Shown here: piece after piece, positions 1,160 to 3,903 of the stretch
How the letters are laid out: each line of letters opens with the position of its first letter
Position numbering within the stretch: position 1 is the first letter of the stretch
Virus record (IMG/VR): IMGVR_UViG_2671180567_000004
Span: 1 to 4,037 of that record
DNA: 4,037 bases
Source of the DNA: a virus
Taxonomy: Duplodnaviria; Heunggongvirae; Uroviricota; Caudoviricetes
Reading direction: 5' to 3' (one strand)
Notes under the pieces: model-generated
Seen by the model: the letters and a program-made list of their open reading frames with translations, nothing else
What the model was told of the DNA's origin: nothing
Databases searched by the model: none
Position numbers and translations under genes: made by a program

Positions 1160-1182
1160 AAAAAACCCAGCCGAAGCTGGGT
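1160..1182 (-). terminator. candidate intrinsic terminator on the minus strand between ant stop and K ribosome-binding site
   Basis: Minus-strand RNA would read ACCCAGC-UUCG-GCUGGGU (7-bp GC-rich stem, UUCG tetraloop) followed directly by UUUUUU, then the K Shine-Dalgarno AGGAG. Plus-strand coordinates: A-tract 1160..1165, stem arms 1165..1171 and 1176..1182. Confidence 0.55.
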
Positions 1183-1200
1183 CATTTCGTTGGCAATCTG

Positions 1201-2121
1201 TTAGTAGTGATGCAGTGAAGGAGGTAATTCTTTGTTCTTAAGTCTTACCCATGCAGAAAGATTCGTTGGTCCGTCTGGCTCATTAATATCAATATCTCGC
1301 GTGTGATTGATTAAAACGTCTCTCGCCATTCCGATAACATACGAGAACTCATGGCCGTAGTCGTAGCACCTGCCAGAATAGTTTGATTGAATTTGCTTTA
1401 GCGCCAGATACAGTTCGCGGAATAATGCCTGTGAGCGGTTGGCATAATCCCATAGCCATACAAGGCTGTTTGCTTCTTTTGCGGAAAGCTCGTTGGTGCT
1501 CTTCTCTTGTTTGCCGATTAACTCTCCTTCAAGCGGAACGCGAGCAGCAAGTGACAGAGCTTCGGTAAACTGCTCCTCGCTGATTTCTTTGTATGAACAC
1601 CCAAAATGAGATTTCAGTGACGACCACATGGTGATCATCGCCTTCGCCTGTTTTTCTTTTGGCAGAGACTGACCGCGACTCATGACGAGTTGTTTAATGG
1701 CTTCCTGCTGTTCAGTGGTGATTTTCCCCAGCAATGCCTTTTTAGCTTTGCGCGGGTTAATCACATGGCCTTTAGTCCAGTACTCGTAGAGCACATCGTC
1801 ACACTCTTCCTGATACTGGATTACCTTGTCGCGAATTTCAGGGCGGACTTTGTTAGGACTGATGGTTTGGAGCCAACCATTCAGTTTACGCAAAGCAAGG
1901 CAAATCATGGTCTGCATACCGCCAACTGAAGGTATTGCGATTTCCACAATACCTTTAGCAAATCTTTGTTTTAACTTTGTAAACTGTGAAGCCCAATCCA
2001 TACCCATTCCCTCAACGATAGGTTTCATTGGGGTGTACGGTTCGCCGTTGTGATTGACGACATAAAGCTCTGCGCCGTGGAATGGCACGTTGATAGTAGA
2101 TACCGCTGTTGCTATACTCAT
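1201..2121 (-). CDS. ant: phage antirepressor (Ant-like) protein, about 306 aa
   Basis: ORF-track entry 1201..2175 (324 aa from a GTG). I prefer the in-frame ATG at 2121..2119 because it is preceded by AAGGAA (complement of 2131..2136, 8-nt spacer) and the GTG at 2175 has no Shine-Dalgarno. The N-terminus MSIATAVSTINVPFHGAELYVVNHNGEPYTPMKPIVEGMGMDWASQFTKLK resembles phage antirepressor N-terminal domains (P22 Ant / Bro-N-like) from memory. Assignment is strengthened by the adjacent upstream Arc-like and divergent Mnt-like genes. Stop TAA at 1203..1201. Confidence 0.7.
   Translation of the reverse strand: MSIATAVSTINVPFHGAELYVVNHNGEPYTPMKPIVEGMGMDWASQFTKLKQRFAKGIVEIAIPSVGGMQTMICLALRKLNGWLQTISPNKVRPEIRDKVIQYQEECDDVLYEYWTKGHVINPRKAKKALLGKITTEQQEAIKQLVMSRGQSLPKEKQAKAMITMWSSLKSHFGCSYKEISEEQFTEALSLAARVPLEGELIGKQEKSTNELSAKEANSLVWLWDYANRSQALFRELYLALKQIQSNYSGRCYDYGHEFSYVIGMARDVLINHTRDIDINEPDGPTNLSAWVRLKNKELPPSLHHY
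2090..2118 (+). promoter_or_regulatory. candidate sigma70 promoter for an antisense (sar-like) RNA, inside the 5' end of ant
   Basis: Plus strand: -35 TTGATA (2090..2095), 17-bp spacer, extended -10 TGc TATACT (TG at 2110..2111, hexamer 2113..2118). Predicted start near 2125, reading antisense across the ant Shine-Dalgarno. Confidence 0.4.
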
Positions 2122-2124
2122 TTC

Positions 2125-2195
2125 GTTAGTTCCTTGGAAGTTACTGACATAGAAGCCCGATTTGTGTTCGCGCACTGTCGGGCTTCGCTATTTTT
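2125..2195 (+). ncRNA. candidate cis-antisense small RNA (sar-like, about 70 nt) complementary to the ant ribosome-binding site and arc-ant spacer
   Basis: Bounded by the candidate promoter at 2090..2118 and the plus-strand hairpin plus U-tract at 2152..2195. The transcript would contain UCCUUG, the complement of the ant Shine-Dalgarno. P22 immI is known to encode a short antisense RNA (sar) in the arc-ant spacer; this is an analogy, not a sequence match. Confidence 0.35.
2152..2195 (+). terminator. candidate unidirectional intrinsic terminator (plus strand) in the arc-ant spacer
   Basis: Inverted repeat GAAGCCCGA (2152..2160) / TCGGGCTTC (2178..2186) gives a 9-bp stem with a 17-nt loop that has an inner GTG/CAC pairing. 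On the plus strand it is followed by GCTATTTTTAT (T-run 2191..2195). On the minus strand no U-tract follows, so arc-to-ant read-through should not be stopped. Confidence 0.4.
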
Positions 2196-2361
2196 ATGTC
2201 CTAGCATTCTTCTCTCCAATCAGTCCGTACACTTTTCTCAATTGATAAATAAGTTCCGTGTTGAACTGTCGACACTCTTTTTCTCCATTTCTTTCAATCG
2301 CCTTCCTTACATCCTCTGGGAAACGAACCTTGCGTTGATACATGTCTTTTGCTTTTTCCAT
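2194..2361 (-). CDS. arc: Arc-like ribbon-helix-helix repressor, 55 aa (not in the ORF track)
   Basis: Hand translation of the minus strand from ATG 2361..2359 gives MEKAKDMYQRKVRFPEDVRKAIERNGEKECRQFNTELIYQLRKVYGLIGEKNART, stop TAA at 2196..2194. Strong Shine-Dalgarno AAGGAG with 5-nt spacer (complement of 2367..2372). The strand (KVRFPEDV), helix and N-cap (NTELIYQL) pattern closely resembles P22 Arc as I remember it (...NLRWPREV...NSEIYQRV...). It sits immediately upstream of ant on the same strand. Confidence 0.8.
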   Translation of the reverse strand: MEKAKDMYQRKVRFPEDVRKAIERNGEKECRQFNTELIYQLRKVYGLIGEKNART

Positions 2362-2399
2362 CTCCACTCCTTAAATAGCCTCACTATGGGGCAACCAAA

Positions 2400-2428
2400 A
2401 TTGTCACACCGTGCGTCATTGAAGTCAA
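2400..2428 (-). promoter_or_regulatory. candidate Pant-like sigma70 promoter driving arc-ant (minus strand)
   Basis: Minus strand reads TTGACT (complement of 2423..2428), 17-bp spacer, TGtGACAAT (extended -10; hexamer is complement of 2400..2405). Predicted start about 30 nt upstream of the arc ATG. The spacer contains CACCGTG (2407..2413). Confidence 0.45.
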
Positions 2429-2447
2429 CCCCACCGTGGGGCATAAT
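2419..2447 (+). promoter_or_regulatory. candidate Pmnt-like sigma70 promoter driving the Mnt-like gene (plus strand)
   Basis: Plus strand: -35 TTGAAG (2419..2424), 17-bp spacer, -10 CATAAT (2442..2447), about 37 bp before the ATG at 2485. Its -35 overlaps the -35 of the divergent minus-strand promoter back-to-back. The spacer contains the palindrome CCCCAC-C-GTGGGG (2429..2441). Confidence 0.5.
2429..2441. promoter_or_regulatory. candidate operator: 13-bp palindrome CCCCAC-C-GTGGGG
   Basis: Dyad symmetry (6-bp arms around a central C) between the two -35 elements and abutting the plus-strand -10. Its core CACCGTG recurs as a direct repeat at 2407..2413 inside the opposite promoter spacer. 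The size and symmetry suit a ribbon-helix-helix dimer or tetramer site. Confidence 0.45.
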
Positions 2448-2484: not shown

Positions 2485-2859
2485 ATGAGTAGAGAAGACC
2501 CTCAACTTCGGATTAGGCTTCCTGTTGAATTAAAAAAAATAATTGAAGCGTCATCAAAACAAAATAATCGTTCTATGAATGCTGAGATTGTCACTCTGCT
2601 TGAGTTGGCGATTCGTGTTTGTCGTGATTTTGGGCCGGAGGATGGTCCTATCGTTCAGCAGTTTAAAGAACAACTAGATGCGATAAACAGAAAATATGAT
2701 AAAAGCGAGCATGAAAAACTTATACCTCAACTTTTAGAAATCATAGAAAAACAGAAAAAACAAGTAGATAAACTTATTAGCATGGTTGAAAGATCAATTC
2801 CTCTTTCAGAGGAATATAAGCAGAAATATCTTGGTGATGACAACAAAAAACCCACCTGA
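2485..2859 (+). CDS. mnt: Mnt-like ribbon-helix-helix repressor with extended C-terminal helical region, 124 aa
   Basis: ORF-track entry 2485..2859. N-terminus MSREDPQLRIRLPVELKKIIEASSKQNNRSMNAEIVTLLELAI has the Arc/MetJ-type strand-helix-helix signature and resembles the P22 Mnt N-terminus as I remember it (RDDPHFNFRMP...NGRSMNSEL...). The C-terminal part (LIPQLLEIIEKQKKQVDKLISMVERS) is heptad-like and K/E-rich, consistent with an oligomerisation helix. It is divergent from arc-ant and convergent with L. Confidence 0.8.
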   Translation: MSREDPQLRIRLPVELKKIIEASSKQNNRSMNAEIVTLLELAIRVCRDFGPEDGPIVQQFKEQLDAINRKYDKSEHEKLIPQLLEIIEKQKKQVDKLISMVERSIPLSEEYKQKYLGDDNKKPT

Positions 2860-2875: not shown

Positions 2876-3574
2876 TTACTGCGAAAGTTTGTTAATGGAA
2901 AGGAAGCCGCCAAAGTTGCCGACGTTATTGCGAAACTTACAGCCACTCAGGCATTTGCTGCATTTATCCTTCGTGATATCGGACGTCGGCTGATCATATT
3001 CATCCGCGACTGCCGGACCGTGATAACCGCACTCATCACCGCGATAGGTCCAGGTGCAGGTGTTGGCCAGCATGATACGTCCCGGAAAAACAGCGCCGTC
3101 CGTTTCCGTCGGCGTGGACAGTACAAAAGAGGCACTCACCGCGCTCAGTTCGCTGCACTGCTCAATGCGCCAGCGGCTGATCACCTCCTGCTCCGGATCG
3201 GCGTCACTGTTTCCGTTGACGAAGTTCACCGCATCCAGAAAACGGGCGTAAACCTTACGCCGGACCACCGTTCCGCCGACCAGACTCTGCAGATCTTCCG
3301 CCATCCCGGTGACCATACCGTACAGGTTAGAAACCGTCAGCGTGGGGCGCGTACTGGTGCCTTTGCCATTCAGTTCAAAACCACTCCCCTGAATGGGATA
3401 CGGCTGATACTGTCGCCCCTGCCAGGTGACCGGCTCACCTTTTTCGTTCTGCTCATTACAGAAAAAATAACGTTCTCCACCGACCTCTGTCAGGTCGATT
3501 TCCCAGAGCACCACGCTGGCCGACTGCTCCGCACGGGTGCATTCATTCAGTGTTTCCTGCCGGATATCCTGCAT
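2876..3574 (-). CDS. L: minor tail protein L (lambda gpL homolog), 232 aa
   Basis: ORF-track protein MQDIRQETLNECTRAEQSASVVLWEIDLTEVGGERYFFCNEQNEKGEPVTWQGRQYQPYPIQ...CSKCLSGCKFRNNVGNFGGFLSINKLSQ matches lambda gpL almost along its whole length from memory. The start ATG overlaps the M stop (TGATG, 3576..3572). Four C-terminal cysteines are present. Confidence 0.95.
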   Translation of the reverse strand: MQDIRQETLNECTRAEQSASVVLWEIDLTEVGGERYFFCNEQNEKGEPVTWQGRQYQPYPIQGSGFELNGKGTSTRPTLTVSNLYGMVTGMAEDLQSLVGGTVVRRKVYARFLDAVNFVNGNSDADPEQEVISRWRIEQCSELSAVSASFVLSTPTETDGAVFPGRIMLANTCTWTYRGDECGYHGPAVADEYDQPTSDITKDKCSKCLSGCKFRNNVGNFGGFLSINKLSQ

Positions 3575-3903
3575 CAGTTCACCACCTGTTCAAACTCTGC
3601 GCTGAACTCAACACGCAGCATACTGACCCGCGACGACCATTTTGCGCAGGTCACCTTTATCTGCCGCCACTCATAAGGCGGCGTCCACAGAAAGGCTTTC
3701 CAGCCCCCGTGCTCTTCCAGAAACGACTCCAGTACCGTGGCCTCCTCACGGGGGACAGAAAGCGTCACGCTGTACGTTTTCAGGTTGGCATTCAGCCCGG
3801 CAGGCGCTCGCTGGGAATAGCCATCACCAAAGCGCACCTTTCTTACAGAAGGGGCCGAAGCCACATCCATACCGGGTTTCACTTTCCAGCGGAAGGTTTT
3901 CAT
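3574..3903 (-). CDS. M: minor tail protein M (lambda gpM homolog), 109 aa
   Basis: ORF-track protein MKTFRWKVKPGMDVASAPSVRKVRFGDGYSQRAPAGLNANLKTYSVTLSVPREEATVLESFLEEHGGWKAFLWTPPYEWRQIKVTCAKWSSRVSMLRVEFSAEFEQVVN is near-identical to lambda gpM from memory. The start overlaps the H stop (ATGA). Confidence 0.95.
   Translation of the reverse strand: MKTFRWKVKPGMDVASAPSVRKVRFGDGYSQRAPAGLNANLKTYSVTLSVPREEATVLESFLEEHGGWKAFLWTPPYEWRQIKVTCAKWSSRVSMLRVEFSAEFEQVVN

What the first reader, a model, noticed from the sequence alone, without database searches (positions are those of the whole stretch)
2090..2195. Candidate sar-like antisense RNA covering the ant ribosome-binding site
A good plus-strand promoter (TTGATA, 17 bp, TGc-TATACT) lies inside the first codons of ant and points toward arc. 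About 70 nt downstream there is a 9-bp inverted repeat followed by a T-run on the plus strand only. The predicted transcript is complementary to the ant Shine-Dalgarno. This mirrors, by position and size, the antisense RNA that limits ant translation in P22 immI. The sequence here is unrelated as far as I can judge, so it would be a separate instance of the same regulatory logic.
Basis: inference. Interest (0 to 1): 0.7.

Follow-up and report, generated by a model that had tools for sequence, protein, structure and literature searches.

The report
Diverged sar antisense RNA guarding ant
This is a diverged but genuine relative of the phage P22 "sar" antisense RNA, sitting in an E. coli-type prophage where it should block translation of the antirepressor gene; the mechanism is well known, and this copy is simply missed by the standard RNA database model.

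Summary
A near-consensus plus-strand promoter (TTGATA 2090-2095, 17 bp, TGcTATACT 2110-2118) lies in ant codons 2-11. It is followed by a two-hairpin transcript of about 70 nt (2125 to about 2195) that ends in a terminator with a T-run on the plus strand only.

The claim that the sequence is unrelated to P22 sar is wrong. It shares the extended -10, the distance from -10 to RNA start, the stem GUUxGU/ACUGAC, the anti-Shine-Dalgarno loop and the terminator base GAAGCCC/GGGCUUC.

A covariance model built without the window or P22 finds window 2125-2197 (+) at 38 bits (E 4e-7) and P22 sar at 65 bits. Across 60 homologous sites in about 20 genera, 95% of pair cells are standard. Fourteen of 20 pairs show compensatory changes. 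G.U pairs outnumber A.C by 217 to 7, which places the selected structure on the sar strand.

Rfam RF00262 scores the window at only 15.6 bits (threshold 43), so it is unannotated. Verdict: new member of a known kind, moderate-to-low interest. Expression and repression remain untested.

The parts
2090..2095 (+). -35 hexamer TTGATA of the sar-type promoter, inside ant codons 9-11
   Evidence: Sequence and promoter scan at 10/12 with a 17-bp spacer. TTGATA/TTGATT/TTGATG sits at the same position in 33 of 59 distinct homologous sites.
2110..2118 (+). Extended -10, TGcTATACT (hexamer 2113-2118), which is ant codons 2-3 (Ser-Ile) read on the other strand
   Evidence: TGnTAnnnT is present in 58 of 59 distinct homologous sites, 6 nt before the RNA start in 52 of them. 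The encoded residues vary (SI, SV, SL, NL, IL, TI, II) while T1, A2, A4 and T6 are kept in all but one.
2125..2197 (+). Predicted sar-type antisense RNA. The start at G2125 is inferred by homology with the annotated P22 sar 5' end. The 3' end is expected in the U-run, about 2192-2197, giving about 68-73 nt.
   Evidence: Model R1, built without the window, hits it full length at 38.2 bits, E 3.8e-7, with all 20 pairs standard. Rfam sar aligns from 2125. Fold is -28.3 kcal/mol, z -4.9.
2125..2148 (+). 5' hairpin: stem 2125-2130 / 2143-2148, loop 2131-2142 (UCCUUGGAAGUU) carrying the anti-Shine-Dalgarno UCCUU
   Evidence: All six pairs of this helix show changes on both sides across the family.
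2131..2135 (-). ant Shine-Dalgarno (AAGGA on the minus strand), 9 nt before the ATG and inside the region covered by the antisense RNA
   Evidence: Read directly from the sequence. It is complementary to the loop of the 5' hairpin.
2152..2186 (+). Terminator hairpin: 10 bp plus 4 bp with a UCGC loop
   Evidence: Eight of 14 pairs of this helix have compensatory changes. In phage JEP4 the A2160-U2178 pair is replaced by G-C.
2189..2197 (+). U-rich tail TATTTTTAT (T-run 2191-2195). It overlaps the arc stop codon (2196..2194), as the P22 sar 3' end overlaps the arc stop.
   Evidence: The CU(G/A)UUUUU tail is conserved in most homologues.
1201..2121 (-). ant, the P22-type antirepressor and the regulated target
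   Evidence: Pfam P22_AR_N (5e-45) and P22_AR_C (5e-28). It is 60% identical to P22 Ant.
2194..2361 (-). arc-like ribbon-helix-helix gene, upstream of ant in the same operon
   Evidence: Pfam Arc at 19.1 bits, just under the cutoff. It is 33% identical to P22 Arc over 40 aa.
2400..2447 (.). Predicted divergent, overlapping promoters: Pant-like on the minus strand (TTGACT 2428..2423, TGtGACAAT 2408..2400) and Pmnt-like on the plus strand (TTGAAG 2419-2424, CATAAT 2442-2447)
   Evidence: Consensus scan only. The layout matches the P22 Pant/Pmnt annotation.
2485..2859 (+). mnt-like ribbon-helix-helix repressor gene
   Evidence: Pfam Arc domain, 3e-07. It is 33% identical to the N-terminal 43 aa of P22 Mnt.

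Best explanation
Window 2090-2197 (+) is predicted to encode a diverged homologue of the phage P22 sar RNA, together with its promoter. The window carries a complete immI-type module (mnt-like, arc-like, ant) inserted between tail genes L and K of a lambdoid prophage.

The sequence shows the following. A sigma-70 promoter with an extended -10 sits in the first 11 codons of ant and points against ant. Transcription is predicted to start at G2125, 4 nt upstream of the ant ATG. It should stop at an intrinsic terminator whose U-run overlaps the arc stop codon. The RNA of about 70 nt has two hairpins. The first presents UCCUU, the complement of the ant Shine-Dalgarno, in its loop. The second is the terminator.

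The mechanism is inferred by homology with P22. The RNA pairs with the arc-ant intercistronic region of any ant-containing mRNA and occludes the ribosome-binding site, so Ant is not translated. This matters because arc and ant lie on the same strand as the tail genes. Late, antiterminated transcripts coming from M and L would read into ant, where the Arc and Mnt repressors cannot act. Only a post-transcriptional brake can then limit Ant.

Convergent transcription from Pant probably interferes with the sar promoter until Pant is repressed. This last step rests on my recollection of the 1987 P22 work and is not shown here.
For: Anatomy matches P22.
- BK000583 annotates the sar promoter in the first codons of ant, the sar RNA from the base next to the ant ATG to the arc stop codon, and a terminator.
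- The window has each element in the same order and spacing.

Homology.
- The window shares motifs with P22 sar.
- Rfam sar aligns from 2125 across all 68 model positions.
- A covariance model built from nine other variants, excluding both the window and P22, scores the window at 38.2 bits (E 3.8e-7) on the plus strand and 8.1 bits on the minus strand.
- The same model scores P22 sar at 65.4 bits.

Selection on the RNA structure.
- In 60 sites from phages and about 20 Enterobacterales genera, 94.9% of pair cells are standard, against 36-47% when partners are slid.
- Fourteen of 20 pairs have changes on both sides, and 0 of 500 shuffles reach the observed values.
- RNAalifold predicts the same two hairpins on its own, with 13 of 17 pairs compensated.

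Strand.
- There are 217 G.U cells against 7 A.C cells.
- The plus strand folds at -28.3 kcal/mol and the minus strand at -19.5.

Selection on the promoter rather than the protein.
- The extended -10 is kept in 58 of 59 sites at a fixed distance, while the encoded dipeptide varies.
- It persists where the downstream gene has a different (Rha) N-terminal domain.

Chance. A promoter this good is expected 0.03 times per window.

Function of the P22 prototype. It pairs with ant mRNA, blocks translation initiation and is needed for proper lysogeny (review PMC12197685; PMC2629481).
Against: - There is no expression data. The start site, 3' end and any effect on Ant are all inferred.
- The window scores only 15.6 bits against Rfam RF00262, whose gathering score is 43, and was not reported at all in the whole-window scan.
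- The U-run is separated from the stem by 4 nt (GCUA), which is not ideal for an intrinsic terminator. The same arrangement holds in P22 and most homologues.
- The alignment used for covariation (A5) was fitted to the model's structure, which inflates paired percentages somewhat.
- Many sequences in A5 are closely related, so cell counts are not independent events.
Confidence: 0.85

Rival explanations
1. The conserved hairpins are elements of the arc-ant mRNA itself on the minus strand, for example a processing site or a structure that tunes ant translation. On this view the plus-strand promoter is a by-product of the Ant N-terminal codons, and no functional antisense RNA is made.
For: The minus strand also folds better than shuffles, at -19.5 kcal/mol with z -3.2. 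77% of pair cells would still be standard on that strand. The promoter lies in coding sequence.
Against: - G.U pairs outnumber A.C by 217 to 7, the signature of selection on the plus-strand RNA.
- The T-run follows the hairpin on the plus strand only.
- The key -10 positions and the TG are kept while the encoded residues change, and they persist in front of a non-homologous Rha-type gene.
- The homologous P22 RNA is annotated as a transcript in BK000583, described as an antisense regulator in PMC12197685 and detected by sequencing in PMC13397905.
Confidence: 0.04
2. The promoter acts mainly by transcriptional interference. RNA polymerases from the near-consensus plus-strand promoter collide with or occlude polymerases coming from Pant or the late operon, and the short RNA is a by-product.
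For: The promoter is closer to consensus (10/12 plus TG) than the P22 one, whose -35 is GTGTTA at 3/6. It faces Pant about 270 bp away. From my own knowledge, interplay between Pant and Psar was reported for P22.
Against: Interference alone would not select for a structured RNA. Yet both hairpins covary, and the loop keeps the anti-Shine-Dalgarno UUCCU/CUCC in nearly all variants. Interference may add to pairing, but it is unlikely to replace it.
Confidence: 0.08
3. The element is a decaying relic of a P22-type immI region and no longer has a function in this prophage.
For: This sequence type is rare. Only 50 of 5426 complete E. coli genomes hold at least 80% of window 2085-2200, and 6 records are at least 99% identical. 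The Rfam score is low.
Against: All parts are intact: the ant, arc-like and mnt-like reading frames, the promoter, and both hairpins with every pair standard. Relatives of this type in JEP4, Izhakiella and Pectobacterium differ by compensatory changes, which indicates continued selection.
Confidence: 0.03

Closest known systems
sar RNA of Salmonella phage P22 (immI region; Rfam RF00262; Liao et al. 1987, Wu et al. 1987, Schaefer and McClure 1997, as cited in PMC2629481)
   Same: - The promoter lies in the first codons of ant with the same TGcTATACT extended -10.
- The RNA starts 7 nt after the -10 and ends at the arc stop codon.
- The RNA is about 70 nt with two hairpins.
- The 5' stem is GUUxGU/ACUGAC, with the anti-Shine-Dalgarno in the loop.
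- The terminator base is GAAGCCC/GGGCUUC.
- The target is a P22-type Ant, 60% identical.
- It is flanked by arc-like and mnt-like genes with divergent promoters.
   Different: - It falls below the Rfam gathering score, at 15.6 versus 43 bits.
- The -35 is much better: TTGATA versus GTGTTA.
- ant is one codon shorter, so the RNA starts 4 nt before the ATG rather than next to it.
- The loop is shorter, 12 versus 16 nt.
- The upper terminator stem is unrelated, with an internal loop.
- The U-run is longer.
- The Arc and Mnt proteins are only about 33% identical to those of P22.
- The module sits between tail genes L and K of a lambda-like siphovirus prophage, not before the tailspike gene of a podovirus.
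sar-type elements in 'ant morons' of other P22-like and Stx phages (for example epsilon34, where Sar is annotated; TL-2011b; JEP4)
   Same: They share the cassette and the mosaic behaviour. The window-type RNA is 88% identical to a segment of phage JEP4 and 78% identical over the region in TL-2011b. ant/arc modules between the tail L and K genes are annotated in many Stx phages.
   Different: No RNA feature was listed at this site in the two records I checked: the near-identical E. coli prophage and JEP4. In JEP4 the downstream gene has a Rha-type N-terminus.
c4 antisense RNA of phages P1 and P7 (immI; Rfam C4)
   Same: It is a small RNA that blocks translation leading to an antirepressor and that determines immunity specificity (PMC12197685).
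   Different: From my own knowledge, c4 is encoded upstream on the same strand as its target and is processed from that transcript. It is not a convergent cis-antisense RNA. No Rfam match to C4 was found in the window at E up to 10.

Membership tests
P22 sar antisense RNA (broad sense: homologues of sar) | Encoded antisense to the arc-ant intercistronic region and covering the ant ribosome-binding site | tested here: met
   The RNA at 2125-2197 (+) spans from 4 nt upstream of the ant ATG to the arc stop codon.
P22 sar antisense RNA (broad sense: homologues of sar) | Promoter inside the first codons of ant, with an extended -10 at a fixed distance from the RNA 5' end | tested here: met
   TGcTATACT at 2110-2118 lies 6 nt before G2125. 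The same geometry is annotated for P22 and holds in 52 of 59 homologues. Promoter activity itself was not tested.
P22 sar antisense RNA (broad sense: homologues of sar) | Two-hairpin fold: a 5' hairpin with the anti-Shine-Dalgarno in its loop, then an intrinsic terminator | tested here: met
   The minimum-free-energy folds of the window RNA and of P22 sar have the same architecture. The consensus structure is supported by covariation.
P22 sar antisense RNA (broad sense: homologues of sar) | Detectable sequence and structure homology to P22 sar | tested here: met
   Model R1, built without the window or P22, scores the window at 38.2 bits (E 3.8e-7) and P22 at 65.4 bits. Shared motifs are read directly from the sequences.
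P22 sar antisense RNA (broad sense: homologues of sar) | Linked to a P22-type antirepressor gene with Arc/Mnt-type regulators | tested here: met
   Pfam P22_AR_N and P22_AR_C on Ant, plus Arc-domain proteins on both sides.
P22 sar antisense RNA (broad sense: homologues of sar) | An RNA of 68-69 nt is made and represses ant translation by pairing | not testable with these tools
   This needs Northern blot or RACE and reporter assays. Only the P22 prototype has such data.
Rfam family RF00262 (sar) as currently delimited | Score at or above the curated gathering score of 43 bits | tested here: not met
   The window scores 15.6 bits, E 0.68, in a 121-nt search, and gives no match in the whole-window search. 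The P22 control scores 97.8 bits. Only 5 of 20 representative sar-type loci pass.
P1/P7 c4 antisense RNA | Match to the Rfam C4 model, and location upstream of its target on the same strand | tested here: not met
   There is no C4 match at E up to 10. The geometry here is convergent cis-antisense.

The most novel reading that the evidence does not exclude
sar is not a P22 peculiarity. On this reading it is one member of a large, mosaic superfamily of portable 'promoter + antisense RNA + terminator' cassettes found across Enterobacterales prophages.

The cassette carries the first five or so codons of whatever gene it guards, M-x-(S/I/N)-(I/L/V)-A. It is attached to at least three different antirepressor architectures: P22_AR_N+C, Rha+P22AR_C and Rha+KilAC.

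Its 5' hairpin exists in at least 8 exchangeable sequence types. These could act as immunity-specificity alleles, as in P1/P7 c4, deciding which co-resident or superinfecting phages' ant mRNAs are silenced in trans.
Probability: 0.3. Interest if true: 0.5.

Novelty: new member of a known kind. Interest (0 to 1): 0.3.

Why it matters
For this window, it explains how an antirepressor gene embedded in a tail operon can be kept silent when late transcripts read through it. It also supplies an RNA feature missing from the RefSeq annotation of the near-identical prophage that I checked.

More generally, the Rfam sar model recognises only about a quarter of the sar-type loci sampled here (5 of 20). 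Antisense control of antirepressors is therefore probably under-annotated in E. coli, including the Stx-phage relatives of this module, and in other Enterobacterales prophages. Ant activity bears on prophage induction and superinfection, so this has some practical relevance. Conceptually it adds nothing new to the P22 paradigm.

Tried and rejected
- **Whole-window Rfam scan.** At E up to 10 it gave no sar match. Only a search restricted to 121 nt exposed the weak 15.6-bit alignment.
- **Terminator scan.** It missed the hairpin because of its limit on loop size, so folding was used instead.
- **MAFFT alignments A1 and A3.** They misaligned the 5' hairpins of the P22-type, L042-type and window sequences. 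I therefore built the model from nine well-aligned variants (A4) and used the model-based alignment A5.
- **Loop inversion idea.** I considered that the window's loop (CCUUGG) might be an inversion of the P22 loop (CCAAGG). I rejected this because only the palindromic core matches. The window loop also fits the family-wide UUCCU anti-Shine-Dalgarno pattern.
- **Terminator for mnt.** I considered that the hairpin might terminate mnt and rejected it, because mnt lies downstream of the hairpin on the same strand.
- **Schaefer and McClure 1997 (PMC1369469).** The paper is not held, so details of the P22 pairing pathway rest on secondary sources and on memory.
- **Literature search on Psar/Pant.** The search returned mostly unrelated papers.

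Full report
**What is in the window**

The 4037-bp window holds lambda-type tail genes on the minus strand: M (3574-3903), L (2876-3574) and K (409-1185, JAB plus NlpC/P60 domains). These are interrupted by a three-gene insert:
- an mnt-like ribbon-helix-helix gene (2485-2859, +);
- an arc-like gene (2194-2361, -);
- ant (1201-2121, -; Pfam P22_AR_N 5e-45 and P22_AR_C 5e-28).

Ant is 60% identical to P22 Ant. The two small regulators are about 33% identical to P22 Arc and Mnt over their DNA-binding parts. A near-identical prophage is present in E. coli CFSAN018748, where RefSeq annotates the same genes and nothing between ant and arc. ant/arc modules between tail genes L and K are annotated in many Stx phages.

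**Check of the observation**

- The promoter is TTGATA 2090-2095, a 17-bp spacer, TG at 2110-2111 and TATACT at 2113-2118.
- The ant ATG is at 2121..2119.
- The inverted repeat is 2152-2160 / 2178-2186, and the T-run is 2191-2195.
- The promoter is the only 10/12 match with TG in the window. It is expected 0.031 times per window by chance.
- The "18-nt loop" of the 9-bp repeat closes into a further 4-bp helix, so the terminator is a 10+4 bp hairpin.
- The T-run follows the hairpin only on the plus strand.
- The predicted RNA folds at -28.3 kcal/mol (z -4.9).

**Comparison with P22**

The curated P22 record (BK000583) annotates three things:
- the sar promoter in the first codons of ant;
- the sar RNA, from the base next to the ant ATG to the arc stop codon;
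- a terminator.

Laid side by side, the two regions are plainly related:

P22: TGCTATACT-ATTCAT-GUUGGU...CUCCAAGG...ACUGAC-AACC-GAAGCCC...GGGCUUC-AACUUU

Window: TGCTATACT-CATTTC-GUUAGU...UCCUUGG...ACUGAC-AUA-GAAGCCC...GGGCUUC-GCUAUUUUU

The window's ant is one codon shorter (MSIA versus MNSIA), and 3 nt have been added before the RNA. The -10 to G distance therefore stays at 6 nt.

Both RNAs fold into the same two hairpins. Rfam's sar model gives 97.8 bits on P22. On the window it gives only 15.6 bits, although the alignment runs from 2125 across all 68 model positions.

**Family evidence**

Eighty viral contigs that encode relatives of this Ant show at least seven sequence types of the region upstream of ant. 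They carry different 5' stems: GUUGGU/ACUGAC, GUCGU/ACGAU, GUCAA/UUGAU, GUCAGU/ACUGGC and AUCAGUU/AACUGGU. These types are shuffled against different promoter and terminator types.

I built a covariance model from nine variants, leaving out the window type and the P22 type.
- It finds window 2125-2197 (+) at 38.2 bits, E 3.8e-7, with all 20 pairs standard. The minus strand scores 8.1 bits.
- It finds P22 sar at 65.4 bits.
- It finds sites just upstream of and antisense to ant-type genes in Lonsdalea, Mangrovibacter, Citrobacter, Erwinia, Xenorhabdus, Photorhabdus, Klebsiella, Yersinia, Proteus, Providencia, Pectobacterium, Hafnia and others.

On the 60-site alignment:
- 94.9% of pair cells are standard, against 36-47% with slid partners;
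- 14 of 20 pairs have changes on both sides;
- no shuffle out of 500 reaches the observed measures.

RNAalifold predicts the same two hairpins independently. The alignment was fitted to the model and many rows are related, so these numbers are generous. The compensatory types are nevertheless numerous and come from different genera.

**Which strand, and is the promoter real**

There are 217 G.U cells against 7 A.C cells. The helices are therefore maintained in the plus-strand RNA, not in the ant mRNA.

The extended -10 (TGnTAnnnT) is present in 58 of 59 distinct sites, 6 nt before the RNA start in 52 of them. The dipeptide encoded on the other strand varies (SI, SV, SL, NL, IL, TI, II), yet T1, A2, A4 and T6 stay fixed in all but one site.

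The cassette also occurs in front of genes with a different N-terminal domain:
- In phage JEP4 a window-type RNA (88% identical, with an A-U to G-C compensation in the terminator) precedes a Rha/P22AR_C gene. Its promoter is TTGGAA-18-TGcTACAAT.
- In Xenorhabdus a sar-type element precedes a Rha+KilAC antirepressor.

These points argue that the promoter is selected as a promoter.

**Mechanism**

Shown by sequence and comparison: a promoter, a structured RNA of about 70 nt complementary to ant mRNA positions -4 to about -75 (including the Shine-Dalgarno AAGGA at 2135..2131), and a terminator.

Inferred from the P22 prototype (PMC12197685; PMC2629481): the RNA pairs with ant mRNA and prevents translation initiation.

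My own inference from the gene order: arc and ant lie on the same strand as the tail genes, so late read-through transcripts would carry ant. A post-transcriptional brake is the only way to silence them. The near-consensus -35 suggests a stronger promoter than in P22, but this is untested.

**Rivals**

- An mRNA-leader element with a coincidental promoter is contradicted by the G.U asymmetry, the plus-only T-run and the pattern of promoter conservation.
- Pure transcriptional interference does not explain selection on the RNA structure, though it may contribute.
- A dead relic is unlikely, because all parts are intact and relatives show compensatory change.

**Novelty**

The mechanism and the family are known. 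Sar has been annotated in P22-like phages such as epsilon34. What is new is modest:
- This copy lies outside the Rfam threshold and is unannotated in the near-identical prophage I checked.
- Rfam's model catches only 5 of 20 representative loci.
- The family extends across many genera and to non-homologous antirepressors.

A 2025 review still lists sar for P22 only.

I rate it a new member of a known kind, interest about 0.3.

Noticed in passing
window 2379-2393 and 2429-2443: There are two copies of a 15-nt motif, CCTCACTATGGGGCA and CCCCACCGTGGGGCA. The second is a perfect palindrome and shares CCACCGTGG with the P22 Mnt operator. It lies in the spacer of the predicted Pmnt, upstream of the Pant -35. 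In TL-2011b the perfect copy instead lies at the Pant start, as in P22 (L002 about 2821-2835). Operator positions look swapped between related modules.
   Followed up: partly
L099 145-221 (Xenorhabdus hominickii); L149 1801-1877 (phage JEP4): sar-type elements with their promoters also precede antirepressor genes of other architectures: Rha+KilAC in L099 and Rha/P22AR_C in JEP4. The N-termini of those genes still read M-x-(I/N)-(L/V)-A, as if the first codons travel with the promoter.
   Followed up: partly
L003-L082 (viral contigs), region upstream of ant: The cassette is mosaic. The same promoter and ant 5' end combine with different 5' hairpins (L008 versus L010 versus L007). P22-type promoters also combine with L044-type RNAs (L078, L082). 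Recombination joints therefore fall at the ant start codon and before the terminator.
   Followed up: partly
20 representative loci: Rfam RF00262 at its gathering score recognises only 5 of 20 sar-type loci, those with a P22-like terminator. The curated family is much narrower than the homologous group.
   Followed up: yes
window 1164-1183 and 2850-2867: GC-rich hairpins lie at both edges of the insert. The one between the ant stop and the K start has T-runs on both strands. The one just after L has a T-run on the minus strand only. They look like the boundaries of the inserted module.
   Followed up: no
L095 111-256 (+) (Photorhabdus cinerea): A sok antitoxin RNA of a hok/sok system (98.7 bits) lies about 0.9 kb from an ant locus that also has a sar-type element.
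   Followed up: no
window 2194-2367 (-): The arc-like reading frame listed from a GTG at 2367 more likely starts at the ATG at 2361, which lies 5 nt after an AAGGAG. RefSeq calls the homologue a hypothetical protein, and its Pfam Arc score is just under the cutoff (19.1 versus 20.4 bits).
   Followed up: partly
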